Positions 42,589 through 57,143 of a stretch of DNA of 64,000 bases are shown one piece after another. The notes under the pieces were generated by a model that was given only the letters and a program-made list of their open reading frames with translations, did no database searches and was not told the DNA's origin. Position 1 is the stretch's first letter. Each line of letters opens with the position of its first letter. Origin of the DNA: a virus (lineage: Duplodnaviria > Caudoviricetes); the IMG/VR virus record IMGVR_UViG_3300035687_000005, positions 408 to 64,407 of that record. One strand, given 5' to 3'. The position numbers were made by a program, and so were the translations under genes.

Positions 42589-43559
42589 TCACCTCTTCTC
42601 GATTCGCCAGAGGCGGGCCCCGGTGTGGCGGGAGTTCTCGGTGGTCACCGCCGCCTGCGTCTCCAGCAGGGTCAGGCGCGCGCGGCACGTCACCCGGGAC
42701 GCCACGAACCGTGGGCCGGTGGCCTCAGGGCTCGTGGTGTCGGCGTAGCGGTGGCCGCACCCACACGGGCACAGACCGGCCCGGTACACGGCCAGGGCCA
42801 ACAGTTCGGCCCGGTCCTGCTCGGTCCACTCGGCCTCCCGGGTGGTCACCGACCGGACCACCCTGCCGGCGTCGTCGTACTCGTACACGGTGGTCTCGGC
42901 GGGCTCACGGCCGTCGAGCTTGGAGCCCGGGACACCGGCGCGTTCGGCGGCCTCTACTCGGTCTCGGAACTCCGGCTCATCCGCGAGGCGGCGGGCGAGA
43001 AAGGGATATTCACGTCACCCCGGTTGAGATACCAGGCGACGTCGGACAGGGTGTCGAACTGCTTATCGGTCAGCTTGCCGTCCTCGACGGGCTCGCCTTC
43101 GGCCTCGATGCGTGCCTGCTCGTCCTCGTCGTCGCCGAGGAGGACACGCCAGTCTTCGTCGTCGAGGACCGGCTCAACGACACTGGCACGGATCAGGGCG
43201 TCGAAGAACGTCTCCGTGTTGACGCCGATGAACTTGTCCCGCTCGTCGACGTCCTGCCCGTCGTCAGTGCGGCGCGGCGGGTGCGCGGCGACGAGCGCCC
43301 GGAACTTGGCCTTCGGCATGGCGCGCAGCCGGAAGATCTCCGTGTCGTCGCGCATCTGCTCCTGGAGCTGGCTCATCCGGTCGAGGATGTCGCCGGTGCC
43401 GTCACCCGCGAGAGAGTTGGTGTTCTTGCGCTGGGCGTCGACCAGTGCCCGCTCGGCGGCCTCGAACTCGGCGACCAGGTCACCGCTGAGGCAGATCGGC
43501 ACGGTGCGCTCGGCGAGTTTCGCCCGGCGCAGCCTGTCCTTGATGAAGTCGCTGCTCAC
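42589..43559 (-). CDS. tail assembly chaperone (42954-43559) and its -1 frameshift extension (to 42589)
   Basis: Slippery C CCT TTC at 42999-43005; the -1 frame is open (FLARRLADEPEFRDRVEAAE...) into 42589..42888. Confidence 0.8.
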
Positions 43560-43647
43560 GATGGTGCCCTCCTGGCTCCTGGCGGGCCTGGCGTAGAAGT
43601 GCGGGGCCGGTCCCGCCAGGAAGCCCGACCCCGCACGCTCAGAAGGA

Positions 43648-44127
43648 TCAGGCGACCGCAGCGCGCAGCGACGGCGACGCCGTCACCTTGATCGGGACCT
43701 CGTACCGCTCGACCGTGTTCGGCTCCGGGTCCACCCGGGCCACCTCGCCGCACAGCGCCGGATACACCTCGATGGCCTGCGCCGACGCCCACGCCGTGCT
43801 CGCGGTGATCGACCTACGGATCACCACGTAGCCGGCGGTGTCACGCACCAGGGTCGTGAAGATGGTGTCGGTGCCCGATTGCTTCTTCAGCCGGAACATC
43901 GTGCCGGAGAAGTTGGTCCGACCGTTGACGTTGGTGTTGAACGTCGAGTCCAGGGCGCTGGTGTCGACGTCGGCGGTCTCCGGCTTGAAGCCGATCAGAC
44001 CGTCCGCCGTCAGCGTGGAGTGCAGCAGCATGCCCGCGTTGAGCTCGGTCGTGGTCGGGGCGTTGATGTTGGCGATGGTGGGGACCCAGGAGACCCGGGT
44101 CTTGCCATCAGCGGTGATGTCGGGCAT
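43648..44127 (-). CDS. major tail protein
   Basis: DGKTRVSWVPTIANINAPTTTELNAG...GYVVIRR. Confidence 0.85.
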   Translation of the reverse strand: MPDITADGKTRVSWVPTIANINAPTTTELNAGMLLHSTLTADGLIGFKPETADVDTSALDSTFNTNVNGRTNFSGTMFRLKKQSGTDTIFTTLVRDTAGYVVIRRSITASTAWASAQAIEVYPALCGEVARVDPEPNTVERYEVPIKVTASPSLRAAVA

Positions 44128-44131
44128 CTAC

Positions 44132-44536
44132 CTACTCCTTCTCGTCGCCGCTGGCGGCACGGGTCTTCTGGCTGGCCTTCTGCGCGCCCTGGCTGTAGGC
44201 CGCGCCCGTCTCTGGGTCGACGGTGGCCAGGGTCACGGTGACCGGCCGGGGACCACCTGCGGCCTGGTCGACGAGCTGCGGGTCCTTCGTCAGGTCCACC
44301 GGCTCCGGCGGCGCCGACGGGCGCCAACCCAGCCCCGCCCACTGCTCCGCGGCGGCCGCGGCGAACAGCTGGCGGCCGCCGTGCACGTCGTGCTGCAGCC
44401 ACACCAGGTCGCCCGCGACCGGGGCGTCGGTCTCTGCCCAGCCGTGTGGCCGCCACCGGTCGCGCTCGTCGGCGCCCTCGACGAGGGCCTTCGCCCCCGA
44501 GGTGTCGGTCAGCCAGTACTTCTGCTTCTCGGTCAT
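44132..44536 (-). CDS. hypothetical structural-region protein
   Basis: Position in the late operon. Confidence 0.55.
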   Translation of the reverse strand: MTEKQKYWLTDTSGAKALVEGADERDRWRPHGWAETDAPVAGDLVWLQHDVHGGRQLFAAAAAEQWAGLGWRPSAPPEPVDLTKDPQLVDQAAGGPRPVTVTLATVDPETGAAYSQGAQKASQKTRAASGDEKE

Positions 44537-44550
44537 CGGGTCAGGGCCTC

Positions 44551-44886
44551 TCAGCAGCGGATCAGCTTGTAGGTGACGGACGTGGCCGACGAGAACGCCA
44601 CCGTGGCGACGCCGGTCGACGAGTTGACGTGGCCGGGCGACAGCCGGAACCAGCGGTCCACACCCGCGCCGACGGCCTGCGCCACGGCGGTCCCGGCGTT
44701 GCCGATCGCGGTCGTGTTCGGGTCGGAGATCGTCACGTTGATCGAGCCGCCGGACGCGTTGATCACGTTGAGGAGCGCGCCGTTCGTGCCGATGTCGGAC
44801 GACAGGACGGTGTCCGAAGTGGTCACGGCGGCCGCGGTGACGGTGGTCGCCGCGGAGGTGACCGATGTGGCGGTTAGCTGCGCCAT
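44551..44886 (-). CDS. small beta-rich structural protein
   Basis: Thr/Ala/Val-rich, upstream of the major tail gene. Confidence 0.6.
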   Translation of the reverse strand: MAQLTATSVTSAATTVTAAAVTTSDTVLSSDIGTNGALLNVINASGGSINVTISDPNTTAIGNAGTAVAQAVGAGVDRWFRLSPGHVNSSTGVATVAFSSATSVTYKLIRC

Positions 44887-44945
44887 CCGGCGCACCCCCT
44901 TCTTGGTGGATGTGGCGTTGAGCAGGGCACCGGTACGGTCACGGC

Positions 44946-45313
44946 ATGGAGCGCAGAGAAGGTCCAGGGCTGGCCAGCACCGGCAACCGCGTACTCCTGG
45001 CGGTCGTCATCGGGCTGGTGGTGTTCGTGCCGACCCGCAGCGTCGTGCTGGGCGCGGTCGTCGGCGTGGTGGTCTACCTGCTCGCGACGCTGGCCGGGAG
45101 TCGGCGGTGAGCATCACGTGCTGGTGGTGCGGCATTGAGCCTGAGCAGCTGTTCGAGATCACGCAGCTCAATGAGGCCCAGCGGCGCTATCTGCCGAACT
45201 GGCCAGCGGGCGACCACGAGCACGCCGAGAACCCGCCGACGCCGTACGAGCTGCTCGACGCCGGGCACCGCACACTGATGCGTATGCGCGACTCGGCGAC
45301 CGGATTACGCTGA
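44946..45313 (+). CDS. two antisense moron genes (44946-45110 membrane; 45107-45313 CxxC protein)
   Basis: TACGGT 6 nt before the ATG; GTGA coupling. Confidence 0.5.
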
Positions 45314-45321
45314 CTCATCCA

Positions 45322-45714
45322 TCAGAGCCACGTCACGGCCGCCGCGTTGATGAGCAGGTGCAGCGTGTTGTCGGCAATGATCATCAGCCAGACCGCGAGC
45401 CATGGCGGGGTGCCGTCGGGGTATCCGGTCGCAGTGTGGCCAGCCCGGAACGCCTTCGGGGCTGCGAGGTTCTTGAGCCAGACGACGTGGCGGGCGAGCC
45501 GGTACCGGTCGATGACGATGTGCGTGCCGCCGATGACCAGCAGCGCCCACGGCGACCGCGTCACCAGCAGGTACGGCAGCGTGTACGTCAGCCCGTGCGC
45601 GACCGCCGGCCACCACCGCTTCGTCTTCTCGCACGCCATCCAGTGCGACTGGAATAGGTAGTCACCGACCAGGTGGGCCAGCACGATGCCGAGCGCGGTC
45701 ATGCTGACTCCCAT
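45322..45714 (-). CDS. DUF3307 membrane protein
   Basis: AHLVGDYLFQ..WMA..K, HGLTY, HIVID, DNTLH. Confidence 0.8.
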   Translation of the reverse strand: MGVSMTALGIVLAHLVGDYLFQSHWMACEKTKRWWPAVAHGLTYTLPYLLVTRSPWALLVIGGTHIVIDRYRLARHVVWLKNLAAPKAFRAGHTATGYPDGTPPWLAVWLMIIADNTLHLLINAAAVTWL

Positions 45715-45785
45715 TTAGTCCGATGGCTAAATCTGGCGTTGGTAGCCGCGGATTAGCCGCACAGAGTTACGTGGTGGGTGATTGC

Positions 45786-46208
45786 CTAGCCCGGCACGCT
45801 CGTGAAGCCGTACACGTCGACCTGGTCCACGATCAACGGACCCGTCAACTCGTCCCGGCCCGCCGGTTGCCCCTCACGCCACCGAATCGGGAAACACGAC
45901 CGGCCCGACACCACCGGAGTCACATCCAGCAAAGCCGTCCGAACCCGGGTCGCGACCGCCCGGGCCGCGACCGCGTTACCGCCGACGCTGTGGCAGTACG
46001 CCCACAGATCCACCACGCTGGAATCGAAGTTCAACGACACCTTGTCCGGCGCCGTCAGACCGTCCGGTGTGGCCACGTAGAAGTACACGAGGACGTACGG
46101 CGGCTCCTGGCCGGCCGGGACGAACCCGTCGAGCACCACCAGCGCCGGCGCCGTGTTGTCCGCGTCGAGCAGATCCAGCACAGCCCTGGCGTGCGCCTGG
46201 ATCGTCAC
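45786..46208 (-). CDS. tail terminator
   Basis: PPYVLVY motif; position. Confidence 0.7.
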   Translation of the reverse strand: MTIQAHARAVLDLLDADNTAPALVVLDGFVPAGQEPPYVLVYFYVATPDGLTAPDKVSLNFDSSVVDLWAYCHSVGGNAVAARAVATRVRTALLDVTPVVSGRSCFPIRWREGQPAGRDELTGPLIVDQVDVYGFTSVPG

Positions 46209-46597
46209 GAAAGACCCGCCTGCTTCACGGCCAAGTCCTCCATGGCCCGCTCGAAGCGCGGCTTCTCCGTGGCACCAGCCGGGCCCATGTGCGGGTGCGG
46301 TCGGTTGTTCACCGACCCGTACTCGAACAGATTGCCCAGGGCGCCCTGACGTTTCGCCTTGTCCGGGCCGATCTCAGCGATCGCGCCGCCCGGGGTTTCC
46401 CGCGTGTCGTACGTGATGGCACTCGGATACGCCGGAGCGTGCGCCGGGCTCCCGACCAGGCGACGGGCCTCCGTCTTGATGTTCACGGCGCCCTTGGCGA
46501 CAACCTTGCGAGCCTCCGCCGGAGCCACCCCCGCCGCGTCGACGAGAATCCGCTCCAACCCCCGGACGTCGTCGACGCCCGTCACCGTGACCTTCAT
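46205..46597 (-). CDS. HK97 gp10-like neck protein
   Basis: KGAVNIK...AEIGPDK..QGALGNLFEYGS. Confidence 0.8.
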   Translation of the reverse strand: MKVTVTGVDDVRGLERILVDAAGVAPAEARKVVAKGAVNIKTEARRLVGSPAHAPAYPSAITYDTRETPGGAIAEIGPDKAKRQGALGNLFEYGSVNNRPHPHMGPAGATEKPRFERAMEDLAVKQAGLS

Positions 46598-49044
46598 CAG
46601 CTGGTCCTCTCGGTGACCTGGACACGCCGGGCGGTCGCATCCGTCTTGTGCGCCAGATCGCGCACCAGGAACACCCGGCCGGGCAGGTCCGCGTCGTACG
46701 CGGCCGCGGTGATGGTCACCTCGTCGCCGACCTGCAGCCCCGTCACCGACATGGGCAACTGCACCTCGAGACGCAGCAGCAGCAGGTGCGCCTCACCGGC
46801 GTCACGGGGCTCCGCCTGGGCCTGCGCCTGCTGCACCCGACACTTCCCGGCGTACAAGCTCGCCCAGGTCGGCGTGATCGTGCCATTGGCCTCATCGGTG
46901 GTCTCACCGGTGCGGCGGCGGATCGTGCACGTGTCCGCCATGCCCGCCTCGGCGACGACCCGGGCGCGGGCCAGTACGGCGGCGCGGGGACCCGAGGTGA
47001 CGGCCCCTGCGGTGACGCCGGCCGTAGCGGACGCGGCGGCCACCGCCGGGGCGAGAACGCTCGCCGCCGCACCGGCGGCCGTGCTCGTGGCCGCGGCCAC
47101 GCTGGTCACGGCGGGCAGGGTGACGGCGGTACCGCCAGCCACCACCGTGTCGAACACGGTCGACATCGACACGCGGGTGGTGGCGTCCAACGACGTGATG
47201 CCCGAATAAGCGACCGTGATCAGGTCACCGTCGTCGGTGACGTCGAGCCACCCGTACGCCTGCACCGTGCTCGGGCTGTTCGTGTACGACCCGGCCGACC
47301 AGGTGTCGGTCACGGCGACGGACGCCTGCTGGAACGGGGCGCCACCGGCCTGCGGGATACCCCGGGTGCCGGTTCCTGTGCCGTCGTCGGCGGCGAGGAA
47401 GTGTCGGTCGCCGAAGATCGCGTAGACCTGGCCGGGAACGTGGGCGTCGATGTAGTCGGACAGCTCGGTGAACTCGTTGAGGTACGAACCCCACCGCCCC
47501 GACCCGGCACCATCGTCGCGCCACGGGTAGTTCCCGCAGATCACCTTGACCGGTTCGGCGTCGAGAAGTCGAGCCTTGAACCAGGCCTTCTGCTCCGTGC
47601 CCAGCATGGACTTGCTGGAGTTGTCAGGGTCGGCCTGCGCGTTGCGGTACGACCTGACGTCGAGCTCGATGAACCGCACCCGGCCGATCACCCAGGTGTG
47701 GTAGCCGCCACGGCCGTCCGTCGCAGGCAGCGGGTACGCCGGGAACACCTTGCGGTAGCCGGCGGCCACGACCGTGCCGGCAACGGCGTCCTTGTCGGAC
47801 GTGTCGCCGCCCCAGTCGTGGTTGTCCCACAGGTAGTTCAGTGGAATCTTGGCCAGCGCCCCGGCCATGCTGACCGAACCGAGGGAGACCATGTGCTGGG
47901 CGAAAACCTGTCCGGCTGTGGCGGCCCCACTCCAGTCGGAGTAGCTCATGTCACCCATGTGCACGATCTGCAGGGCCCTACCGCCGGCCGCCCCCGTCTT
48001 GGCGAGTATCGCCGCGAAGGTGGAGTCCGAGGGGACGGTGAACTGGCACGACCCGAAGGCCAGGCTGAACGACGCCGCCGCCCCCGCGGTCGGGAACGTT
48101 TTCACCTCGCCGCGGCCGGTCGCGAGCAACACCCCGTCGCACTCGACGCCGAGGTAGTACTGGGTGGCCGCGGACAGCGACCCGACCGTCAGCTTCACCA
48201 CCCCGTCTGCGTCCGGGGCCACCGACGACGAGTACACGGGCGATGTCAACGCGGCGCTGGTCGAAACGACCATCCGGGCCAGTGCGGTGCCCGCGACGAC
48301 GAACGCCGCGGTGAAACCGGCATCGGTCACCGCCCCCGACCAGGGCCCGTAGAGCAGAGTCGGGGCGACCGGGGTGGTCGGGTAGCCGGTCGTCGACCAG
48401 GCGAGGTCGTCGATGTCGACAGCGAACGAAGTCACCCCAGACCGGATCATTCCCGCCTGGAACTTATTCGACCCGCCGGCGCCGAGGGTGTTGACCGTCG
48501 CCGCGCTCGTCAACGTCTCCGACACGTTGCCGTTGGCATCGTAAATCTTGATCTCGGACTGGCCCACCGTCGCCGAGAACGTCAGGACCGCCACGCCGAC
48601 GTCCAGCCACGCCCCGGCCACGTACGTCGTGGTGGAGATGGCCAGCTGGGTGCCGGCGGAGTTCCGAAGCCGAATCTTCCCTGCGTTGTTGATGCTGAAG
48701 TCGCCGACGAACGCCCCAGTCGAGTCCGTGATCACGGCGAAGCGAACCCCGGTGGCGTCCGGCGGCAGGACCGGCAACCGGACCCGCATCCGCCCGTACA
48801 CGCTGCCCGTCGACGACGTACCCATCGCCGTCGTGATCTCGCCGTAAACCAGGCCCGCAGTGCCCCCGGACGCGAACCGGCCACACAGCGACCCCCGGTA
48901 GGGGGTCGTCGCGTAGAAGGTCGCGGACCCGGTCGCCGCGATGTTCACGAAGTTGAACGCGGTACCCGACGCGCCACCGGAGTTGCCGGTCGTGATGGTC
49001 GATCCGCCGGTGCCGCCCTCGAACGTGTTCAGCGTGCTAGTCAC
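46597..49044 (-). CDS. fusion: beta-sandwich domain + PhoD-like phosphatase + Ala linker + head-tail stopper (DUF6093-like)
   Basis: FGSC, HMGDMSY, WDNHD, LDVRSYR, MLGTEQKAW, GDRH; C-terminus MADTCTIRR...LYAGKCRVQ...KTDATARR. Confidence 0.85.
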   Translation of the reverse strand: MTSTLNTFEGGTGGSTITTGNSGGASGTAFNFVNIAATGSATFYATTPYRGSLCGRFASGGTAGLVYGEITTAMGTSSTGSVYGRMRVRLPVLPPDATGVRFAVITDSTGAFVGDFSINNAGKIRLRNSAGTQLAISTTTYVAGAWLDVGVAVLTFSATVGQSEIKIYDANGNVSETLTSAATVNTLGAGGSNKFQAGMIRSGVTSFAVDIDDLAWSTTGYPTTPVAPTLLYGPWSGAVTDAGFTAAFVVAGTALARMVVSTSAALTSPVYSSSVAPDADGVVKLTVGSLSAATQYYLGVECDGVLLATGRGEVKTFPTAGAAASFSLAFGSCQFTVPSDSTFAAILAKTGAAGGRALQIVHMGDMSYSDWSGAATAGQVFAQHMVSLGSVSMAGALAKIPLNYLWDNHDWGGDTSDKDAVAGTVVAAGYRKVFPAYPLPATDGRGGYHTWVIGRVRFIELDVRSYRNAQADPDNSSKSMLGTEQKAWFKARLLDAEPVKVICGNYPWRDDGAGSGRWGSYLNEFTELSDYIDAHVPGQVYAIFGDRHFLAADDGTGTGTRGIPQAGGAPFQQASVAVTDTWSAGSYTNSPSTVQAYGWLDVTDDGDLITVAYSGITSLDATTRVSMSTVFDTVVAGGTAVTLPAVTSVAAATSTAAGAAASVLAPAVAAASATAGVTAGAVTSGPRAAVLARARVVAEAGMADTCTIRRRTGETTDEANGTITPTWASLYAGKCRVQQAQAQAEPRDAGEAHLLLLRLEVQLPMSVTGLQVGDEVTITAAAYDADLPGRVFLVRDLAHKTDATARRVQVTERTS

Positions 49045-49066
49045 GGGCGGGCTCCATCGTCCGGGT

Positions 49067-49495
49067 TCAGCTGGCCGGCATGGTGACAGTCGCCGACGTG
49101 ATGTCGACGGTGAGACCGATCGAGACGGTCGTCGTCGCCAACGTCAGGTCACCGCCGCCGCCGGTCGCCGTGACACTGCCGTCATAGACGCCCAGCCCGG
49201 TCGCCGCAGCCTCAGTGCTGTCGAGGACCCGGAACCATCCCGCGGTGCCGGCGGCGACACCGGTGGCGGTAACCGCGGGGGTTACATCCAGCGTCGCTAC
49301 ACCAGCCGCAACGGAGAACGCCGGGTCGGACAGGGTTAACTCGGCCAGCAAGGTGCCGGACGGGGCCGTGCCCGGCCCGGCCGGCTGCGCGCCGCTGTAA
49401 ATGCGGATCTTGCCCGCTGACGAGCCGCCGTCGACCAGGTTGGCGATCGCCTGGGCCGCAGCCGTACGCGCCGCGGTAGAGATACGGGTGGCCAT
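49067..49495 (-). CDS. small virion fibre/structural protein
   Basis: GKIRIYSGAQP, GTLLA, GTAGWFR motif common in phage structural cassettes. Confidence 0.7.
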   Translation of the reverse strand: MATRISTAARTAAAQAIANLVDGGSSAGKIRIYSGAQPAGPGTAPSGTLLAELTLSDPAFSVAAGVATLDVTPAVTATGVAAGTAGWFRVLDSTEAAATGLGVYDGSVTATGGGGDLTLATTTVSIGLTVDITSATVTMPAS

Positions 49496-49632
49496 CAGAG
49501 GGCTCCTTCAACGACACGGGGCCGGCTCGTGCGGGCGCCGGACTGGTCACCAGCACGCCAGGTCATCGAACGGTCATGCCCGCGTAGGGACGCATGGTCG
49601 TCGCAGCTGATCAGCGCTCGCACCGTTGCCCC

Positions 49633-52416
49633 CTAGGGTCTGCTCGTGACGCCGGTGTCGGGACGGACGGTGATGCCGCCGCCTGGACGTGGGGTCGTCG
49701 CGCCGGCGCCGGGACGGACGGTCACACCGGACGCCGGGCGGACGGTCACACCCGAGGCGGGGCGGACCGTGATGCGCCCAGGTGTCGCCGTCGTCGCGTC
49801 GTACGCGGCACCGGTCGCCTCCGCCGCCTGCGCGGCGACGGTGGAGCTGATGGTCGCGAGCCACGCTGCCGCGACGGCCTCGGCCTGGTCGGCGAGCGCC
49901 TCCACGGACGGGGTTACCTGGCCGACCGCACCCGTGCCCGCCGCGGCCGTCGCCCCGACGGTGATGGCCACGGTGGCGTCGGACGCCGACCCGGTCGCCG
50001 CCGCAAAACCTGCAGGGGCGGCCGTTGAGGCGCTGGTGCTGACCGTCGCATCGGCCGCCGAACCGGCAGCGGTCGCGACACCGGACTGCGAGGTGACCGC
50101 GGCACTCGCGTCAGCCGCAGCGCCGGTGCCCAGGGCGGCATCAGCCGGCGCGTTGGTCGTGCCGGAGATCGCGACCGTCGCGTCAGCCGCGGACCCGGTC
50201 GCGGCCGGAGCCTGCGCCTGAGTAGCCAGACCTGAGACCGCGTCGGAAGCCGTACCCGCCGCGGCAGGGGCGTCGGCGGAAGCTGCGACCGCGACAGCCG
50301 CATCCGCTGCGGTGCCGACCGCGTCGGCCTGCGCAGCCGCGACACCGACAGCCGCCGAGCCGTCAGCCGCAGCGGCCGCACCCGTGGCCGACGCGGCGTC
50401 GACCGTGGCCGACACCGCGGCGTCGGCTGCGACACCGGCCCCGGATGCCGTCGCGGCATTGGAGGCGGCAGCCGCAGTCGCGGCGTACGCCGTACCGACG
50501 CCGAGCGTCGCCTCGGCGTTGATTGCTACACCGGTGGTGGCGTCCGCCGACGAACCGACACCCGAGGGCGCCTCGGCGTTGACCGCGACGGCGGCGACGG
50601 CATCAGCTGCCGAGCCGGTACCGGTGGTTGCTTCGGCCGGGGCGTTCGTCGACGACGCCGTCGAAACGGTGGCGTCGTAGGCCGCGCCGGCGGCCAGAGC
50701 GGACTCGGCGTTAGGCGCCACCGACGATGTGGCATCGGCCGCCGCACCGGTGCCGGTCGGGCTTTCCGCAGCTGCGGTAACGGCCACTGTGGCGTCTGCT
50801 GCGCTGCCGACACCCTGCGTCGCCTCAGCGCCGGCACCCACGGCCGGTGTCGCGTCTGCTGCCGCTCCGGCGCCGCCTGGCGCCTCGGCGTTGGCGGCCA
50901 GGGACACGGCAGCGTCAGCCGCAGAACCGGCGGCCAGGGTGCTCTCAGCGGGCGCGTTGGTGGTGCCGCCGCCGGGAATCGTCGGCAGGATCTCCGCGAG
51001 ACTGATCCGGTTGTTGCCACCCGGCGGGTTGTCCAGACCGATGACGATGCCGACCAGCGACTTCGACACCCCGGACGCCGCGAACAGGGCGGCGGTGTCC
51101 CCGGCGGTGCCGTTGACGTACCCGAACAGGGTCGTGTTCGCGTTCGCGGTGACGGCCTGCGCGTCGAACGCCCGGCCGAGCGCACCGGCGATGAGACTGC
51201 CCGGGGTGGTCGGGGCGATCGCACCGGCGTAGGCGATGTCGCCGCCGCCGGCCAGGGTCGCGCCGGGTTGCGACGCCACCGGGGCCGCGTTGCTGTACCA
51301 CTTGCAGATCAGGGCCAGGCCGGACGCCGCCGCGCCGCCCGGGTCGTACGTGACGGTCATCGCGGCACCCGTGGTGATGTCCCGGGCCCAGATTTCGGCG
51401 ACACCACCGGTGCCCGACGCGTCGCCGGGGCCGAGCCGGGACCAGGTCCCGCCGAGGGAGTCGGTGACCGCGCCCAGGGAACTGGCCGAGCCGACCCCGT
51501 TACCCATCGCGCAGTACGCGACCAGCAGGGTCCCGTTCGCCGGGGTGAACGACGCCGACGTGATCGTGGCGGTGTTCGCGCTTGCGAACGCGGTGGTGCC
51601 GACCTCGGTCACGACCGTGTCCGGGGTCAGGTTCTCGACGACGCGCGGATCTTCGACGAACCGCTGCGACGGATTCGGGCCGTCACCGGGCCAATACGAC
51701 CACGGCGTCGATCCGACCTCGGGCGTCGAACTGACCGGGGTGACCTCGATGGCGATCCAGCGCGCGTTCTGCGTCGACGGGGTCGTCAGGTTCATCGTGA
51801 TCGGCGAACCCACCACGCCGTCGTTCGCGGTCCGCAGGATCACGGCATGCGACAACAGGCCGGCCTCGTTGGCCGCATCACCACCGGTGGTCGTACAGCC
51901 GGCCCCGGCGGACGGGGCGCCCGTACCCGCGTCCCAGTCGGCCCAGCCCATGACACCGCGGCTGCCGGTGACGGTCGCGGTGATGTTCTGCGCAACGGAC
52001 GTGATGGGCGTCAGGGTCGCGTTCTCGATGGGCGTTCCGACACCTGGGGCGACGCCCGAGCTGTCGGTCCACACCTGGACCTTCAGTGCCCGGCCGGAAC
52101 CGGCCGGGTTGTCGTCCGACGTGGTGACCGTCATCGCTGCCGACGTCGCCACCACGGCCGTGAACAGCGACATCGACCCGTTGGCCGCGTTGATGTCAGG
52201 GTTCCGGTTGTGCGCCTGCAGCGTGTAGGTGAGATGAACGCCGAGGTTGTCCGTGATCGTCGGGTCCGCCGGGGTCGCGGCCGCGTTGCCGTTGTTCCGC
52301 AGCCAGATCAGCAGCAGCGACCCGGCGGGCGGAGTGAACGACGCCGTCGTCGCGGTGACGGTGGCGGTTGTCCAAACAGTCGCCGGCGAGGACGCGTCGA
52401 GGGAGAGCGCGCCCAT
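49633..52416 (-). CDS. long Ala-rich fibre-like structural protein
   Basis: Two beta-rich N-terminal domains (both with TASFTP/SASFTP..G.LL), ~20-aa Ala repeats, C-terminal TVRPxxG repeats. Confidence 0.75.
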   Translation of the reverse strand: MGALSLDASSPATVWTTATVTATTASFTPPAGSLLLIWLRNNGNAAATPADPTITDNLGVHLTYTLQAHNRNPDINAANGSMSLFTAVVATSAAMTVTTSDDNPAGSGRALKVQVWTDSSGVAPGVGTPIENATLTPITSVAQNITATVTGSRGVMGWADWDAGTGAPSAGAGCTTTGGDAANEAGLLSHAVILRTANDGVVGSPITMNLTTPSTQNARWIAIEVTPVSSTPEVGSTPWSYWPGDGPNPSQRFVEDPRVVENLTPDTVVTEVGTTAFASANTATITSASFTPANGTLLVAYCAMGNGVGSASSLGAVTDSLGGTWSRLGPGDASGTGGVAEIWARDITTGAAMTVTYDPGGAAASGLALICKWYSNAAPVASQPGATLAGGGDIAYAGAIAPTTPGSLIAGALGRAFDAQAVTANANTTLFGYVNGTAGDTAALFAASGVSKSLVGIVIGLDNPPGGNNRISLAEILPTIPGGGTTNAPAESTLAAGSAADAAVSLAANAEAPGGAGAAADATPAVGAGAEATQGVGSAADATVAVTAAAESPTGTGAAADATSSVAPNAESALAAGAAYDATVSTASSTNAPAEATTGTGSAADAVAAVAVNAEAPSGVGSSADATTGVAINAEATLGVGTAYAATAAAASNAATASGAGVAADAAVSATVDAASATGAAAAADGSAAVGVAAAQADAVGTAADAAVAVAASADAPAAAGTASDAVSGLATQAQAPAATGSAADATVAISGTTNAPADAALGTGAAADASAAVTSQSGVATAAGSAADATVSTSASTAAPAGFAAATGSASDATVAITVGATAAAGTGAVGQVTPSVEALADQAEAVAAAWLATISSTVAAQAAEATGAAYDATTATPGRITVRPASGVTVRPASGVTVRPGAGATTPRPGGGITVRPDTGVTSRP

Positions 52417-52428
52417 CGGCGGGCCTCC

Positions 52429-52749
52429 CTATCGTCCGGCGGTGATCTGGAGTCCGAGGACGTCCTCGATCGTGGCCAGGCCCCGGCTGGCGAGCTGGTT
52501 GAGCCGCTGTTGGGTGAGGACCGTCGTACCGTCCGGGACGTCGACCGCGCGGGGCGTCGTATCCGGGCTGCCGTCCGCCCCGAGGCCGATCAGGATCTTG
52601 GTGTACTGGCAGCCCGGGTCTTTGAACGTCGTGATCCCGGTGATCGCCCGGGTCGCGCTGTCGAACGTCACCGTGATCCTGATGACCTTGCCGACGTAGT
52701 CGTCGAAGGACTGCACCCAGGGCGACGTGACCGGCTGACCGACGCCCAC
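52429..52749 (-). CDS. hypothetical structural protein
   Basis: Coupled within the cassette. Confidence 0.55.
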   Translation of the reverse strand: MGVGQPVTSPWVQSFDDYVGKVIRITVTFDSATRAITGITTFKDPGCQYTKILIGLGADGSPDTTPRAVDVPDGTTVLTQQRLNQLASRGLATIEDVLGLQITAGR

Positions 52750-52750
52750 G

Positions 52751-53326
52751 TCAGTTCAGGCTCTCGAGCTTGAAGCTGTGCGTTTGTATGCTATTGGCCG
52801 CATTGGACACCGACCACTGCGCCGTGAGGTCGATCAGGTTCGTGACGGTCGAGTCGAAACCGGTGCCGACCGCCGGGGCCGACGCCGGGAAGATGTGCGC
52901 CGCCGCACCACCCGCGCCGGCAGCCGGGGAGCCGATGACGGACTCGGACTGCCACGCCCCGGAGTGCATGACCGTCGCCGTGGTGCTACCGCCGACGGTG
53001 CGGACGACCAGGTCCCAGTCCAGGATCCACGTCACGTTGGTCTTGGCCGCGACGTTGAGGGCCAGCGCGCCGGACGACGCGACCGCGATCGTCGCCGTCG
53101 GCCCCATCTTGACCCGGAACGTGAGCGTGCCCGGCGTGGTCACGATGTTGGAGACCCGCCCCATCGCCCGGATACGCAGGGTCTGCCCGGCGTACGTCAG
53201 GAAGTTCGCGGGCAGGGTCAGCTTGGCCTGCGGCGCCAGGATCGTCGTCTCGGTGGTCGACGTGTTAAGGGCGGTGCCGTCGACCTGCTGACTGATCAGG
53301 AGGCTCTGCCAACTCTGGAACGGCAT
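52751..53326 (-). CDS. beta-rich structural protein
   Basis: Start MPFQSWQ; Thr/Ala/Val-rich. Confidence 0.65.
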   Translation of the reverse strand: MPFQSWQSLLISQQVDGTALNTSTTETTILAPQAKLTLPANFLTYAGQTLRIRAMGRVSNIVTTPGTLTFRVKMGPTATIAVASSGALALNVAAKTNVTWILDWDLVVRTVGGSTTATVMHSGAWQSESVIGSPAAGAGGAAAHIFPASAPAVGTGFDSTVTNLIDLTAQWSVSNAANSIQTHSFKLESLN

Positions 53327-53342
53327 ACGGCCGCCTTCCCGC

Positions 53343-54116
53343 TCAGGAGGCGTGCGCCTCCAGGTAGGTAATCGCCGCTCGCAGGCGAGACGGCTCGTCC
53401 TTGAAGTTGCCGAGGCCGAGGTTGCAGTGGTGGCAGAGCAGGCCGCGCACCCTGCCCGTGGCGTGGTCGTGGTCGACGTGCCATGCGCCCTTGCCGCCGG
53501 GCTCGGCGGCGGGGCAGATCCCGCAGCTGCCGCCCTGCTCGGCCAGCATCTCGGCGAACCGATCGGGGGTGACCCCGTACAGGTACATCCGGTTGTACGC
53601 AATGGTGGTCTTGCGGCGGGTCGGATTACTGATCCGCTGAGCGAGCGTCTTGCATTCCGGGGAGCAGTACAGGGCGTTAATCGGCCTGTTGGGTGAAATC
53701 TGCTCGTCACACTCGGCGCACGGACGATCTACAGCCTTCTTCGCGCGGAGGGTACGTAGCCGGACCTGCTCGTTACTCCAGGCGTCGCCACACTTGCGGG
53801 AGCAGAACCGCTGCGTAATGGTTTTCTGCTCGATTGCCTGCTCACACCAGGCGCAGTTGGTGCGACGAGTCGCCCTGCGGTGCACAACGGCCTCATGCTT
53901 CCGGGCATCCATCTCATCGTCCTTGCAGGACTTAGAGCAGAACTTCGCCCCGAACCGACGCTCCAAGGGAATTACGCCCCCGCAACGCTGACACGGACCG
54001 TGGACCTTGGGGGCCACCTCGTCGAGGCGTCCTTGGGTCTTGATCCGCTGATAGTCGTTGCTACACAGCCCCCGCGCAACTGGCTTGCTTTCGCAGCCGT
54101 CCATGATGCATGTCAT
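53343..54116 (-). CDS. endonuclease VII-like HNH (homing-type) endonuclease
   Basis: YGVT...QGGSCGIC...HVDHDHATGRVRGLLCHHCNLGLG; repeated FCSxxC; lower GC. Confidence 0.85.
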   Translation of the reverse strand: MTCIMDGCESKPVARGLCSNDYQRIKTQGRLDEVAPKVHGPCQRCGGVIPLERRFGAKFCSKSCKDDEMDARKHEAVVHRRATRRTNCAWCEQAIEQKTITQRFCSRKCGDAWSNEQVRLRTLRAKKAVDRPCAECDEQISPNRPINALYCSPECKTLAQRISNPTRRKTTIAYNRMYLYGVTPDRFAEMLAEQGGSCGICPAAEPGGKGAWHVDHDHATGRVRGLLCHHCNLGLGNFKDEPSRLRAAITYLEAHAS

Positions 54117-54158
54117 TTACTGACTCTACACCACTGAAGTTTGTGCTTTTTGGGCAGC

Positions 54159-54647: not shown

Positions 54648-54649
54648 GG

Positions 54650-54880
54650 CTACTGCCCTCCCGCACTCTTGCGCGCTTCGTCAGCCTCGGCGCGGGCGCG
54701 CTTGGCGTTGGTCTTGGCGTCGGCGAGGCTGGTCTTGATCCCGGCCAGCTTCTCCTCGATCACGGTGACTGCCCGCTCGCAGTCGGCGGCGTAGGCCTCG
54801 AGGTGCGCGACCTGATCGGTCGCCGCGTACGTCTCGACCAGGGCGTCGTTGGCGGCCCCGCCGCCGTTGCTGGTACTCAC
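54650..54880 (-). CDS. small coiled-coil protein
   Basis: RBS GAGGAG. Confidence 0.55.
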   Translation of the reverse strand: MSTSNGGGAANDALVETYAATDQVAHLEAYAADCERAVTVIEEKLAGIKTSLADAKTNAKRARAEADEARKSAGGQ

Positions 54881-54889
54881 GTGTTCTCC

Positions 54890-55312
54890 TCAGCCCAGGC
54901 GGGCGTGTGCGGTGGGGGCGTACACGGCCACGTCGTTACCGTCGTCGCGAGTGGTCACCACGGCCATGATCGGGCGGCCGTTCCCGTCGTACTGCACGTC
55001 CTCGGCGCCGACGTAGTCCTCACGCTCGACGGCCTCGACCTTGCAGCTGCTACCGGCCGGGACCATCGGCGCCGTCAGCCCCGCCAGCCCCGCGCACGCG
55101 TGGAAACGGCTGTGCGGCTGCGCTTCCCGGGTCACGTCGGTGAACGTGCAGTTCGGGCACGACCACGGGCGCTCCGGGACGGCCAGCAGCGGAACCCGCA
55201 CAGAGACCTCCATGGCCGGAGTCGTCATGGGCGATGGGTGGAGGCGATCAGTGGTAATCGCCGCTGTTCCGGAGACCGGTGCGATAGCCATCGACCGACC
55301 GCCCTCAGCCAT
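54890..55312 (-). CDS. hypothetical protein
   Basis: WSCPNC..RFHAC...EREDY; start uncertain. Confidence 0.55.
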   Translation of the reverse strand: MAEGGRSMAIAPVSGTAAITTDRLHPSPMTTPAMEVSVRVPLLAVPERPWSCPNCTFTDVTREAQPHSRFHACAGLAGLTAPMVPAGSSCKVEAVEREDYVGAEDVQYDGNGRPIMAVVTTRDDGNDVAVYAPTAHARLG

Positions 55313-56516
55313 CGGTGGCGAAGACCGTCTTCATGGCGACCCGGGTCGTACCGTCCACCGACGTCACGCCCTCATAGCTGATCGTGATGTCATCGCCGGA
55401 ATCAGTGACGTCGAGCCACCCGTACGCCTGCACAGTCGTCGACGACGGACCGTACGTGCCCTGCGACCAGGACTCACCCGGCGACGTGGTGCCCCGCTGG
55501 AACGGCGACCCACCGGCCTGCGGCACCCCACGACCGGACTTCGACACGCCACTGTCGGCCGCCAGATGATGCCGGTCCCCGAAGATGACATACAGGTGAC
55601 CCACCATGTCCGCGACCGAAACGTTCAGCTCCTCGAACTCGTGGACGTAGGAGCCCCAGCGGCCACCGGACGCCGACCCCGCCCGCCACGGATAATTCCC
55701 ACACAGAACCTTCACCGGCTCCGGCTCGAGCAGCTGCGCCTTCAGCCACGCCTTCTGCTCCACGCCCAACATCGTCTTCGCCGGACCCGCCGGACAGGAC
55801 TGCGGATCCCGGTACGAACGAGTGTCGATCTGCACGAACCGCACCCGACCGATCACCCACGACCGGTAGGCGCCGCGCCCGTCACCCGCGGGCAGCGGAT
55901 ACGTCGGGAACACCCGCCGGTACACGGCCGCCACCACATCACCGGCCGGCGCCGTCCGGTCGCTCGTGTCGCCGCCCCAGTCGTGGTTGTCCCACGTGTA
56001 CTCGAACGGGATCCTCGCGAGGGTCGGGGCCATGGACGCCGACCCCAACGACACCATGTGCTGGCCGAACACCTGCGCGGCCGTCGTACCCGCCGACCAG
56101 TCCCGATAGTTCAGATCCCCCATGTGGATGATCTGCAACGCCCGGCCGGTGGGCCCCGACCGGGCCAGGATCGCCGCGTACGTGACGTCCGTCGGTACCG
56201 TCTTCTGACACGAACCGAACGCCACCGAGAACGACGCTGGACGACCCTGCACCGGGAACGTCCGCACCTCACCACGGCCCGCCGACAGCAGCCTGCCATC
56301 AGCCTCGACACCGAAGTGGTACCGCGACCCCGCCTGCAGACAATCCACCGACAGCAACACCGCGCCGTCGGCATCCGGCGACACCGACGGCGAATGGACC
56401 GGCGAACCCAGGTCAGGCGACCTGGACACCACCAGCCGCGCACTCCCCACCCCGGCGAGGGTGTAACCGGCGATGAAACCCGACGCGGTGACCCCACCGG
56501 ACCAGGGACCCTTCAT
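55305..56516 (-). CDS. phoD: PhoD-like alkaline phosphatase/phosphodiesterase (stand-alone copy, no signal peptide)
   Basis: FGSC, HMGDLNY, WDNHD, IDTRSYR, MLGVEQKAW, GDRH; RBS GGAGG. Confidence 0.85.
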   Translation of the reverse strand: MKGPWSGGVTASGFIAGYTLAGVGSARLVVSRSPDLGSPVHSPSVSPDADGAVLLSVDCLQAGSRYHFGVEADGRLLSAGRGEVRTFPVQGRPASFSVAFGSCQKTVPTDVTYAAILARSGPTGRALQIIHMGDLNYRDWSAGTTAAQVFGQHMVSLGSASMAPTLARIPFEYTWDNHDWGGDTSDRTAPAGDVVAAVYRRVFPTYPLPAGDGRGAYRSWVIGRVRFVQIDTRSYRDPQSCPAGPAKTMLGVEQKAWLKAQLLEPEPVKVLCGNYPWRAGSASGGRWGSYVHEFEELNVSVADMVGHLYVIFGDRHHLAADSGVSKSGRGVPQAGGSPFQRGTTSPGESWSQGTYGPSSTTVQAYGWLDVTDSGDDITISYEGVTSVDGTTRVAMKTVFATDG

Positions 56517-56540
56517 GCTGCGCCCCTCCAGGCAGGGAAA

Positions 56541-57143
56541 TCAGGCGCGATGAGTGGAAGCGATCAGCGGCACAGAGCCGGCCGGCCGGCCGTACTGACG
56601 CCGCAGCAACCGCTGCAGCGACTCCGACGCCTCGAGCTGCGTCGACATCGCCGCGTACGTGGCGGCGTAGTCGTCGATCCGGACCTGAACAGCACCATCC
56701 GGAACCTCGTACGGGCCCCTCGCCAGCGACAACACCGTCGACCGGGCCAGCTGCAGACGCTGATGCCCGGTCGCGTACCCGTGGGTGTACGTCACCGTGA
56801 CCGTGGACGGCTGATCGGCGTAGGCGACCAGGGTCGACCGCCACCCGTAAGCCCGCCACAAACGCCCACGCCGAAGCTGTGGGGTGAAGTCGGTGACCGT
56901 GGTCGCACCGACCAGGACCGCGCCGACCGCTGTCACCGGGCGCTCCGGCAGGTCGAGGTACAACCCGCCGCACCCGTCCAGGTCAAACGTCACCGTGTCG
57001 TTGACGACCTGGACGATCCGCTGACCGACCACCGCCTGCACAACCGCAGTCGCGCACTCCAGCAGGAGCGTGGCGGTGGCCGTGTCGACGTCCTGCTGCA
57101 ACAGGGAGGCGAGGTCCGAAGGCGTCGCGAGTTGATCAGCCAT
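56541..57143 (-). CDS. head-to-tail adaptor
   Basis: MADQLATPSDL, LPERPVTAV, VTYTHGY, IDDY. Confidence 0.85.
   Translation of the reverse strand: MADQLATPSDLASLLQQDVDTATATLLLECATAVVQAVVGQRIVQVVNDTVTFDLDGCGGLYLDLPERPVTAVGAVLVGATTVTDFTPQLRRGRLWRAYGWRSTLVAYADQPSTVTVTYTHGYATGHQRLQLARSTVLSLARGPYEVPDGAVQVRIDDYAATYAAMSTQLEASESLQRLLRRQYGRPAGSVPLIASTHRA

What the first reader, a model, noticed from the sequence alone, without database searches (positions are those of the whole stretch)
46597..49044. PhoD phosphatase domain fused to the head-tail stopper: a candidate enzyme-decorated virion neck
Seen: one uninterrupted 815-aa ORF with a ~230-aa beta-rich domain, a full PhoD-like domain (~48350-47150), an Ala-rich linker and a C-terminal ~125 aa matching the head-tail stopper (DUF6093-like). 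The stopper part sits at the normal stopper position, just before the gp10-like and terminator genes. I found no other stopper gene, and there is no start codon at the usual stopper N-terminus (...GPRAAVLARAR). There is no Tat signal, whereas cellular PhoD is Tat-exported. Known: stoppers form an oligomeric ring in the neck, and Bacillus subtilis PhoD hydrolyses wall teichoic acid as well as phosphomonoesters. Inference: each virion could display several phosphoesterase heads, either to cut cell-wall phosphodiester polymers during adsorption or to release phosphate extracellularly. I know of no description of this fusion.
Basis: partly seen in the sequence, partly recalled or inferred. Interest (0 to 1): 0.9.

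Follow-up and report, generated by a model that had tools for sequence, protein, structure and literature searches.

The report
Phosphoesterase fused to phage neck stopper
A soil actinophage encodes its neck "stopper" protein as one long polypeptide carrying a sugar-binding-like domain and a PhoD-type phosphoesterase, so the virion neck probably displays about six enzyme heads, an arrangement we did not find described.

Summary
ORF 46597..49044(-) is an uninterrupted 815-aa frame with four parts:
- a ConA-like jelly-roll (1-~225);
- a PhoD/purple-acid-phosphatase-like domain (~226-635), with the Fe ligands Cys/Asp/Tyr/His and the bridging Asp conserved;
- a 49-aa Ala-rich linker;
- a full DUF6093 head-to-tail stopper domain (685-815).

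It is the genome's only DUF6093 gene. It sits between the adaptor and the Neck1/terminator genes.

The fusion is not an artefact.
- An independent assembly of the one holding run, probably the source sample, gives the identical junction at ~29x.
- GC3 stays at 0.84-0.96 through the junction.
- A second metagenomic protein (P0153, 834 aa, 66% identical) has the same architecture with a differently sized in-frame linker.

The fusion is rare.
- It appears in 0 of 28 related loci and 0 of 119 matching isolated-phage records.
- A free 131-aa stopper (P0182), identical over residues 698-815, exists.

The same enzyme module is fused in other metagenomic proteins to a major tail protein, a head-tail adaptor, and minor tail, head and fibre families. 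It therefore looks like a virion-displayed module.

Display on the neck and a cell-wall phosphodiester substrate are inferred, not shown. I class it as a new variant of a known kind (virion-borne enzymes and neck appendages). The scan has not reported this on other DNA.

The parts
46597..49044 (-). Whole fusion ORF, 815 aa (stop codon at 46597-46599)
49052..49055 (-). GGAG Shine-Dalgarno, 7 nt upstream of the GTG start at 49044
   Evidence: read directly
48370..49044 (-). Residues 1-~225: ConA-like beta jelly-roll, a putative glycan-binding or lyase-like head
   Evidence: AF2 model. Foldseek neighbours are TtX122 8q2a_A (E 8.6e-9), glucuronan lyase 2zzj, Cip1 3zyp and alginate lyase 6kzk.
47140..48369 (-). 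Residues ~226-635: PhoD_N/FN3-like sandwich plus PhoD/PAP-type metallophosphoesterase. Motifs GSC333, GD365xxY368, WD407-N-H-D410 and GD546-R-H548.
46993..47139 (-). Residues 636-684: Ala-rich linker (20 Ala in 49). About two units of the ~18-20-aa ...TLP...A...S/T... stalk repeat seen in P0153 and P0154.
46600..46992 (-). Residues 685-815: complete DUF6093 head-to-tail stopper domain. G685-P686 replace the ancestral M/V-S start.
46939..46941 (-). ATG of Met702 (conserved M18 of free stoppers), the only ATG in the junction region. It is preceded by GAGG, which also encodes the conserved E-x-G. A possible but unproven internal start.
46205..46597 (-). Neck1/tail-completion (gp10-like) gene. Its start overlaps the fusion's stop codon by 1 nt.
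   Evidence: phrog_5, E 1.1e-5
45786..46208 (-). gp17-like tail completion/terminator gene
   Evidence: PF11367, E 2.6e-4, below cut-off. 52% and 62% identical homologues lie in the same position in L013 and L027.
56541..57143 (-). Head-tail adaptor. The ~9.5 kb between it and the stopper domain is an inserted cassette.
   Evidence: (phrog_442, E 6.7e-18)
55305..56516 (-). Second, free-standing PhoD-like paralogue (403 aa, no jelly-roll). 62.5% identical to residues 231-633 of the fusion.

Best explanation
The ORF is a genuine gene fusion. An enzyme head is tethered by a flexible 49-aa Ala-rich linker to the N-terminus of the phage's only head-to-tail stopper. The head consists of a ConA-like jelly-roll plus a PhoD-type Fe/Ca phosphoesterase.

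The protein is made in the cytoplasm, since it has no export signal. Its C-terminal domain then assembles into the stopper ring between adaptor and Neck1/terminator. That ring is a hexamer in the solved actinophage Douge. The heads are left outside the neck as up to six short appendages.

Inferred mechanism: the jelly-roll binds a host surface glycopolymer. The phosphoesterase then cuts phosphodiester links, such as those of teichoic-acid-like or sugar-phosphate wall polymers. It would act either as an adsorption aid or as a receptor-destroying enzyme that frees virions from debris.

Inferred origin: a PhoD-stalk-TxRP appendage gene lay just upstream of the stopper gene. A deletion joined it in frame to the stopper. 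The joined form then moved by recombination at the start of the stopper gene.

Shown: the fusion, its conservation, the two folds and the metal-ligand conservation. Inferred: incorporation into virions, copy number, outward orientation and substrate.
For: The fusion is real.
- Logan contig record 1 (26,637 nt, depth 28.8) covers 45800-47829 with 0 differences and 0 gaps. Record 7 covers 47801-49600 likewise.
- GC3 is 0.88-0.90 across the junction windows.
- P0153 (834 aa) is 66% identical over 831 columns. It has PhoD plus DUF6093 and a 20-aa in-frame linker indel.

The C-terminus is a stopper.
- Pfam 110.7 bits.
- AF2 pLDDT 86.
- Z 10.9 to the SaPI1 neck, 10.3 to the T1 stopper, 9.3 to the Douge and SPP1 connector chains.
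- Arthrobacter phage homologues are annotated head-to-tail stopper in 7 of the 14 rows shown.
- Synteny adaptor-stopper-Neck1-terminator in L013 and L027.
- It is the only DUF6093 gene in the genome.

The enzyme is probably active.
- C333, D365, Y368, D546 and H548 are each conserved in 36 of 37 family members.
- They align with PhoD C180, D207, the tyrosinate, D436 and the following His. Mutating C180 or D436 abolished activity and mutating D207 drastically reduced it (PMC4223295, passages read).

The module is a virion module.
- In other proteins it is fused to a major tail protein (P0160, phrog_792, E 4.3e-77) and a head-tail adaptor (P0004, phrog_783, E 8.7e-78).
- Among 89 further long relatives, every named co-occurring PHROG is tail, head, fibre or virion structural.
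- In the isolated phage Rowlf, the PAP-like gene lies next to the head-to-tail adaptor gene.

N-terminal extensions are tolerated.
- P0151 joins an Ala-rich stalk to DUF6093.
- In Douge, residues 12-20 of the stopper form an 'exterior attachment loop' (PMC13033339, passages). They map just after the window domain's N-terminal helix.
Against: - There is no protein-level, transcript or particle evidence.
- The only run holding the DNA is probably the source sample. The second assembly is therefore not an independent sample.
- The fusion is rare. It appears in 0 of 28 related loci. None of the 119 isolated-phage records that match covers 80% of the query. Only 1 other fused protein was found, against 703 free stoppers.
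- P0182, a free 131-aa stopper, is identical over residues 698-815. This neck therefore works without the head.
- The calcium site departs from PhoD: D266 is N408, N271 is G413 and N272 is D414. N271A abolished PhoD activity.
- The Pfam PhoD score is barely over its threshold.
- Met702, with an upstream GAGG, could give a separate 114-aa stopper.
- Whether six 70-kDa heads fit around the ring, and whether the N-terminus points outward, was not computed.
Confidence: 0.5

Rival explanations
1. The long ORF is real, but the functional stopper is made separately. This could happen by internal initiation at Met702 or a GTG in the linker, or by proteolytic cleavage in the Ala-rich linker. Virions would then carry few or no enzyme heads. 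The N-terminal part would act as a soluble, late-expressed enzyme, for example at lysis.
For: - Met702 is the conserved M18 of free stoppers and is preceded by GAGG 5 nt upstream.
- In-frame GTG codons occur in the linker.
- Database entries of 114-115 aa start at that Met (P0241, P0284, P0289).
- A mix of long and short forms would ease crowding.
- Free-standing ~630-650-aa forms of the module are common.
Against: - The GAGG is forced by the conserved E-x-G-M coding and is present in free stoppers too, so it is not a special signal.
- A product starting at Met702 lacks the conserved N-terminal helix (R3, L7, A14, E15).
- No GGAGG-like site precedes the linker GTGs (my reading).
- The ancestral start codon has been lost in both the window and P0153. 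This is unexpected if separate translation mattered.
- No terminator or promoter lies inside the ORF.
Confidence: 0.22
2. The fusion is an accident without function. It could be a sequencing or assembly error, or a very recent mutation (indel or start-codon loss) in one phage population. That mutation would have joined an upstream PhoD gene to the stopper and would be neutral or mildly harmful.
For: - P0182 differs from the window only at stopper residues 1, 2, 12 and 13. It begins V-S where the window has G-P.
- The window DNA at that point holds a run of four C. One indel plus one substitution could convert one form into the other (my reading).
- Another long DUF6093 protein, P0152, has a 300-aa R/P-rich middle that looks like an out-of-frame reading. 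Artefactual long forms therefore do occur.
- The two PhoD paralogues share 29- and 31-nt exact repeats, and the Logan contigs break there.
Against: - The junction lies inside one Logan contig at depth ~29 with 0 differences.
- The paralogue repeats are direct repeats at equal depth on a linear genome, which allows only the given order (my reasoning).
- GC3 shows no phase change.
- P0153 keeps the same fusion at 66% identity with a different linker length.
- The linker is homologous to the stalk repeats of P0153 and P0154, and is not alternate-frame sequence.
Confidence: 0.07
3. The head is displayed on the virion but does not act on wall teichoic-acid-like polymers. Alternatives:
- a phospholipase-D-like action on membrane lipids;
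- a nuclease or phosphodiesterase action on extracellular DNA in biofilm matrix;
- a mainly adhesive role, with the jelly-roll doing the work.
For: - The PhoD family includes the Streptomyces chromofuscus and S. avermitilis phospholipases D (PMC4223295 passages; 9uya_A hit at E 1.2e-25; PMC13435022 abstract).
- The calcium site differs from B. subtilis PhoD, so specificity may differ.
- One family member, P0039, has lost all five metal ligands yet persists. A non-catalytic role is therefore possible.
- The authors of the P1312 paper guessed a DNA-degrading role for that phage's metallophosphatase (PMC4569894 passage).
Against: - 36 of 37 members keep the ligands, which argues for catalysis.
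- A neck position is far from the membrane.
- The jelly-roll's nearest folds are glycan-acting or glycan-binding domains, which points to a carbohydrate-containing target.
Confidence: 0.2

Closest known systems
Free-standing DUF6093 (PF19586) head-to-tail stoppers of actinophages, e.g. Arthrobacter phages Hestia, Judy and Richie; phrog_13779
   Same: The same domain over the full Pfam profile (2-117 of 117). The same fold as solved stoppers. The same place in the gene order.
   Different: Free stoppers are 130-135 aa with their own M/V-S-R-A start. Here 684 residues precede the domain and the start codon is gone.
Bacillus subtilis PhoD (PDB 2YEQ) and the PhoD-type phospholipase D of Streptomyces
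   Same: The same fold (Foldseek E 2.7e-22; profile E 1.3e-31). The same Cys/Asp/Tyr/His Fe site and bridging Asp.
   Different: - No Tat signal.
- An extra N-terminal jelly-roll.
- No C-terminal capping helix; a linker and stopper follow instead.
- Ca-site changes (WDNHD..GGD in place of WDDHE..NN).
- A cytoplasmically assembled virion protein rather than a secreted phosphate-starvation enzyme.
Free-standing actinophage 'hydrolase / purple acid phosphatase' genes (phrog_25497, phrog_13624; e.g. Microbacterium phage Rowlf gp26, Streptomyces BE-cluster phages)
   Same: A homologous enzyme module (29-36% identity by tblastn; PHROG E 2e-117). In Rowlf it also lies in the structural module, next to the adaptor gene.
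   Different: These are separate genes whose function the Rowlf authors call unknown (PMC12352085 passage). None is joined to a neck protein.
phi29 collar appendages gp12
   Same: Enzyme-bearing appendages attached at the collar or neck that recognise and digest wall teichoic acid (review PMC9863714, passage).
   Different: - A podovirus.
- gp12 is a separate trimeric beta-helix tailspike, not a metallophosphoesterase.
- It binds the collar non-covalently.
- The neck is close to the cell surface in a short-tailed phage.
Neck passage structure (collar/whiskers) of lactococcal siphophages and T4 whiskers
   Same: Accessory structures on a siphophage or myophage neck. The NPS may carry carbohydrate-binding modules that assist adsorption (PMC9863714 passage).
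   Different: Separate proteins with no catalytic phosphoesterase domain, and not a fusion with a ring-forming connector subunit.

Membership tests
DUF6093 / head-to-tail stopper (head-closure) proteins | Sequence match to PF19586 over the gathering score | tested here: met
   110.7 bits against a cut-off of 27.9. Residues 695-811 cover profile positions 2-117 of 117. 57-97% identity to 35 aligned members.
DUF6093 / head-to-tail stopper (head-closure) proteins | Stopper fold (small antiparallel beta barrel, as in SPP1 gp16, lambda gpFII and the T1 stopper) | tested here: met
   AF2 pLDDT 86.0. VIA Z 10.9 (SaPI1 neck, rmsd 3.3, 100 aligned), 10.3 (T1 stopper-terminator 9l0e_A), 9.3 (SPP1 7z4w_1), 8.7-8.8 (lambda), 8.4 (phage 812 stopper). 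These sit above unrelated PilZ rows at Z 8 or lower.
DUF6093 / head-to-tail stopper (head-closure) proteins | Gene position between head-tail adaptor and Neck1/tail terminator | tested here: met
   The same order is seen in L013 and L027.
DUF6093 / head-to-tail stopper (head-closure) proteins | Stand-alone ~130-aa polypeptide with its own start codon | tested here: not met
   G685-P686 (GGT CCC) stand where free members have M/V-S. The frame is open for 684 residues upstream.
DUF6093 / head-to-tail stopper (head-closure) proteins | Forms the ring under the adaptor in the virion | not testable with these tools
   Needs particles (MS, cryo-EM).
PhoD family (PF09423) phosphoesterases | Sequence match over Pfam's gathering score; homology to solved PhoD | tested here: met
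   28.1 bits against a cut-off of 27, which is marginal. A profile of 37 relatives hits 2yeq_A at E 1.3e-31 and 9uya_A at E 1.2e-25.
PhoD family (PF09423) phosphoesterases | PhoD/PAP fold | tested here: met
   AF2 pLDDT 90.0. Foldseek puts 2yeq_A top at E 2.7e-22 with TM 0.60 (target-normalised). Purple acid phosphatases follow at E ~1e-13 to 1e-15.
PhoD family (PF09423) phosphoesterases | Fe3+ site: Cys (C180), Asp (D207), tyrosinate, His, and bridging Asp (D436) | tested here: met
   C333, D365, Y368, D546 and H548 align to these motifs. Each is kept in 36 of 37 relatives. The ligand list comes from PMC4223295 passages. The Tyr and His residue numbers in PhoD are not in the passages I read.
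PhoD family (PF09423) phosphoesterases | Two Ca2+ sites: D265, D266, N271, N272 | tested here: inconclusive
   D407 is kept. D266 is N408 (20 of 37 relatives have N, 17 have D). N271 is G413 (G in 33 of 37). N272 is D414, a substitution the paper calls conservative. This rests on a sequence alignment only, with no metal modelling.
PhoD family (PF09423) phosphoesterases | Tat-dependent export | tested here: not met
   No Arg in the first 49 residues and no hydrophobic leader. Export of PhoD by Tat is stated in a PMC4223295 passage.
PhoD family (PF09423) phosphoesterases | Phosphodiesterase/monoesterase activity | not testable with these tools
   Needs an enzyme assay.
ConA-like lectin/glucanase jelly-roll | Fold similarity of residues 1-~225 | tested here: inconclusive
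   Foldseek gives 8q2a_A at E 8.6e-9 (TMt 0.61), 2zzj at 1.3e-8 (0.60) and 3zyp at 1.7e-7 (0.60). There is no sequence-family hit. The fold alone shows no function.

The most novel reading that the evidence does not exclude
The adaptor-stopper gap of this actinophage group may hold a previously unrecognised neck-appendage system.
- Its parts would be enzyme- or lectin-headed Ala-rich stalks.
- The stalks would attach to the neck either through C-terminal TxRP peptide repeats or, as here, by covalent fusion to the stopper ring.
- The PhoD-type head would be a wall phosphoglycan depolymerase or receptor-destroying enzyme that sets host range or virion release.
Probability: 0.3. Interest if true: 0.8.

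Novelty: new variant of a known kind. Interest (0 to 1): 0.62.

Why it matters
Connector ring proteins are among the most conservative parts of tailed phages. They are usually thought of as bare plumbing. A ring subunit that carries a 70-kDa enzyme head would show that the neck can serve as a display platform.

It would also give PhoD/purple-acid-phosphatase-like genes of actinophages a testable role. A 2025 genome announcement still calls their function unknown. The candidate role is virion-borne cleavage of phosphodiester-linked wall polymers.

The recurrent fusion of the same module to tail tube, adaptor, minor tail and head proteins suggests a general display module. Such a module could be of use for phage engineering and as a source of wall-polymer depolymerases.

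Tried and rejected
**Assembly chimera through the paralogue repeats.** Rejected. The junction is inside one Logan contig. Direct repeats at equal depth leave only one linear order.

**Close isolated relatives.** Megablast of 43000-53000 against 50,697 phage records found nothing.

**DNA of the P0182 and P0153 contigs.** I wanted these for junction comparison and dN/dS, and could not get them.
- The viral and metagenome scans did not return them.
- The idea that one C-run indel separates the window from P0182 therefore stays my reading of a protein against the window DNA.

**phmmer of the single protein against PDB.** No hits at E <= 1. The profile search worked.

**Complex prediction.** Not used. 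A ring or stopper-Neck1 pass would only repeat solved structures. It would not tell whether the full-length form is incorporated.

**Orientation of the stopper N-terminus.** I could not compute it, because no coordinates were available. I rely on one passage about Douge. Supplements were closed, so Douge's supplementary tables and figures, which may show the N-terminus, were not seen.

**Literature.**
- 'DUF6093' gave 1 paper, on a cyanophage, seen in the listing only.
- 'PhoD + phage + virion + teichoic acid' gave 0.
- 'head-to-tail stopper + fusion' gave 2, both unrelated by title and abstract.
- 'purple acid phosphatase + bacteriophage + virion' gave 4, none describing a fusion.
- Recalled, not read: Myers et al. 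2016 (JBC) on GlpQ and PhoD as teichoic acid hydrolases.

**Other points.**
- Earlier-findings look-ups by sequence and by words added nothing beyond this genome.
- P0152 was considered as a third fusion type. I set it aside as a doubtful ORF because of its R/P-rich middle.
- Part of the minor-tail PHROG matches (phrog_8501, phrog_13352) lie on repetitive linkers, as in P0004. They are weak evidence of a tail location.


Full report
**What is there.**
The window is almost all of a 64,407-bp IMG/VR virus record that CheckV rates complete. It has ~70% G+C. Its virion genes run on the minus strand in this order:
- large terminase, portal, protease, major head protein, head-tail adaptor (56541..57143);
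- a ~9.5-kb cassette;
- the ORF in question (46597..49044);
- Neck1 (46205..46597), a gp17-like tail completion gene (45786..46208), a DUF3307 membrane protein, and two small tail genes;
- the major tail protein (43648..44127) and the tape measure protein.

The ORF is 815 aa. It starts at a GTG with GGAG 7 nt upstream. Its stop codon overlaps the Neck1 start by one base.

**Domain anatomy.**
- Pfam finds DUF6093 at residues 695-811 (110.7 bits, cut-off 27.9). It finds PhoD at 393-554 (28.1 bits, cut-off 27).
- PHROGs are clearer. phrog_25497 covers residues 5-633 against a 635-position profile (E 2e-117). phrog_13624 'hydrolase' and phrog_24476 'phosphodiesterase' also match. phrog_13779 covers 690-813.
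- An AF2 model of residues 1-640 (37-sequence alignment, pLDDT 90.0) shows an all-beta domain to ~217, a beta sandwich, and an alpha/beta core.
- Foldseek ranks B. subtilis PhoD 2yeq_A first (E 2.7e-22). Plant and mammalian purple acid phosphatases follow. The N-terminal part finds ConA-like jelly-rolls on its own: TtX122, PL20 glucuronan lyase, Cip1 and an alginate lyase.
- A profile of the family hits 2yeq_A at E 1.3e-31.
- In that alignment the window's GSC333, GD365xxY368 and GD546xH548 fall on the PhoD motifs. Those motifs hold Cys-180, Asp-207, the tyrosinate, and Asp-436 with its following His.
- The paper reports that C180A, D265A, N271A, N272A and D436A abolish activity, and that D207A and D266A drastically reduce it (PMC4223295, passages).
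- Across 37 relatives, C333, D365, Y368, D546 and H548 are each kept in 36. The exception, P0039, has lost all five.
- The calcium-site motif is WD407-N-H-D410-W-G-G413-D414, against PhoD's W-D265-D266-H-E-x-x-N271-N272. The family splits into WDNHD and WSDHD types.
- I conclude this is a PhoD-related enzyme with an intact iron site and an altered second-metal site. It is probably active, but its specificity is unknown.
- There is no Tat or other signal. The first Arg is residue 50.

**The C-terminal domain is a stopper.**
- Residues 685-815 align end to end with free 130-135-aa proteins whose consensus starts MSRAxVLARGR. The window has G-P-R-A-A-V-L-A-R-A-R.
- The AF2 model (pLDDT 86.0) has an N-terminal helix and a beta barrel.
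- It matches neck chains of solved phages: SaPI1 Z 10.9, Chi 10.7, T1 stopper-terminator 10.3, Douge 9.3, SPP1 gp6/gp15/gp16 complex 9.3, lambda 8.7-8.8, and the phage 812 stopper 8.4.
- Homologues at 32-36% identity in Arthrobacter phages are annotated 'head-to-tail stopper' in 7 of the 14 rows shown, out of 74 matching records.
- It is the only DUF6093 match in the genome.
- Related contigs L013 and L027 have adaptor, stopper, Neck1 and terminator in the same order.

**Is the fusion real?**
- One public run holds the stretch. It is probably the source sample.
- Its Logan contigs were made by another assembler. One contig of 26,637 nt at depth 28.8 covers 45800-47829 with no difference and no gap, and this contig contains the junction. 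Another covers 47801-49600 likewise.
- The contigs break at a 31-nt exact repeat shared with the second PhoD paralogue. These are direct repeats at equal depth on a linear genome, so they do not permit another order.
- GC3 is 0.84-0.96 in every window of the frame. It is 0.88-0.90 across the linker and junction.
- Most telling is a search for long proteins carrying the stopper domain. It found P0153 (834 aa), which has PhoD plus DUF6093. P0153 is 66% identical to the window's protein over 831 columns. Its linker is 20 residues longer but in frame, and its stopper start codon is also missing.
- The IMG gene call for this genome is the same 815-aa protein (P0302).

**How rare is it, and how did it arise?**
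- None of the 28 related loci from the viral and metagenome collections shows the fusion. 26 carry the enzyme module without a detectable stopper nearby, and 2 carry the stopper without the module.
- None of the 119 matching isolated-phage records covers 80% of the query.
- Against 703 short DUF6093 proteins, only three long ones were found. These are P0153, P0151 (Ala-rich stalk plus stopper) and P0152 (doubtful, with an R/P-rich middle).
- P0182 is a free 131-aa stopper from another contig. It differs from the window only at stopper positions 1, 2, 12 and 13 and is identical over the remaining 118 residues. P0153's stopper half is only ~61% identical.
- So the window's stopper body is shared with a phage that lacks the fusion. 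A mosaic breakpoint lies in the first ~40 nt of the stopper gene.
- The linker resembles the first two units of the repeated ...TLP...A...S/T... stalk. In the closest enzyme relatives (P0154 at 67%, P0156 at 70%) that stalk continues and ends in short TxRP repeats.
- My inference is that a PhoD-stalk-TxRP gene lay upstream of the stopper and was joined to it by deletion. The joined form then spread by recombination within the conserved stopper start.

**Is the module a virion part?**
- The exhaustive representative search gave 4,401 relatives at E <= 1e-3, of which 690 are at E <= 1e-30.
- Of the 181 proteins fetched from the searches up to (three of them found through the stopper domain), 96 are 720 aa or longer.
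- Beyond the enzyme module, P0160 carries a major tail protein (phrog_792, E 4e-77). P0004 carries a head-tail adaptor (phrog_783, E 9e-78). P0012 carries phrog_11667.
- In 89 further long relatives, every named co-occurring PHROG is structural: major tail, minor tail, tail, tail fibre, central fibre J, head, virion structural and tail assembly proteins. No DNA-metabolism or lysis family appears.
- Some minor-tail matches lie on repetitive linkers and count for little.
- In the isolated Microbacterium phage Rowlf, the 'purple acid phosphatase' gene sits between tail genes and the head-to-tail adaptor. [quoted passage not shown]
- In the window, a second copy without the jelly-roll (403 aa, 62.5% identical) lies directly after the adaptor gene.

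**Mechanism proposed.**
The stopper domain should assemble into the ring between adaptor and terminator. That ring is hexameric in the actinophage Douge, whose residues 12-20 form an 'exterior attachment loop' (PMC13033339, passages). Douge's chain begins where the window domain's residue 16 lies. The N-terminal helix and the linker before it are therefore plausibly on the outside. This is an inference, not a computed result. Up to six heads on ~49-residue tethers would surround the neck.

Three observations point to a phosphate-containing surface glycopolymer as the target:
- the jelly-roll has glycan-related fold neighbours;
- the iron site is conserved;
- PhoD-family precedents act on teichoic acid and phospholipid (PMC4223295 passages).

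The closest cellular carriers of the module are Micromonosporaceae and the sample is soil, so an actinomycete host is likely. Whether the enzyme helps adsorption or frees virions from debris cannot be told.

**Comparison with the known.**
The nearest functional analogies are the phi29 collar appendages, which 'recognize and digest' wall teichoic acid, and the neck passage structures with carbohydrate-binding modules in lactococcal siphophages (PMC9863714, passages). Both are separate proteins. Neither is a metallophosphoesterase, and neither is part of a connector ring subunit.

**Verdict.**
- Novelty: a new variant of a known kind.
- Confidence that the fusion gene is real: about 0.9.
- Confidence that the head is displayed on the neck: about 0.6.
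- Confidence that it cuts a wall phosphodiester polymer: about 0.35.

Noticed in passing
window 49633-52416 (-); L013:4559-5389; proteins P0154, P0156, P0180, P0181, P0013: Ala/Thr/Gly-rich quasi-repeat 'stalk' proteins end in short tandem x-T-x-R-P repeats. They have no Pfam or PHROG name. They occur in the adaptor-stopper cassette or on PhoD-module proteins. This is a candidate non-covalent virion anchor motif.
   Followed up: partly
window 46993-56540; L013:2881-6001; L027:928-957: The gap between the head-tail adaptor and stopper genes is an insertion hot spot. By tblastn ends, the genes are adjacent in L027 (~28 nt apart). The insert is 3.1 kb in L013 and ~9.5 kb in the window.
   Followed up: partly
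window 55305-56516 (-): A second PhoD-like paralogue (403 aa, no jelly-roll, 62.5% identical to residues 231-633 of the fusion) lies directly downstream of the adaptor. It shares 29- and 31-nt exact repeats with the fused copy.
   Followed up: yes
window 53343-54116 (-): An endonuclease VII / HNH-type gene (phrog_2914, E 1.5e-35) lies inside the structural cassette. It is possibly a homing element linked to the cassette's mobility.
   Followed up: no
window 45322-45714 (-): A DUF3307 membrane protein gene (phrog_6676, E 4.8e-59) is inserted between the tail terminator and tail genes. It looks like a moron.
   Followed up: no
proteins P0160, P0004, P0012 (metagenomic): The same jelly-roll plus PhoD module is fused N-terminally to a major tail protein (phrog_792), a head-tail adaptor (phrog_783) and phrog_11667 respectively.
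   Followed up: partly
protein P0152 (663 aa): A globular N-terminal domain and a C-terminal DUF6093 are joined by ~300 R/P-rich residues. These look like an Ala-rich linker read out of frame. It is probably a frameshifted contig or a mis-called ORF.
   Followed up: no
protein P0039: A family member in which all five conserved metal ligands (Cys, Asp, Tyr, Asp, His) are replaced. It is presumably catalytically dead.
   Followed up: no
proteins P0159, P0162 (Micromonospora genome and a relative): The PhoD module is followed by a ~200-aa helical C-terminal domain with no Pfam or PHROG hit. By eye it resembles head-tail adaptor-like helical proteins. Not tested.
   Followed up: no
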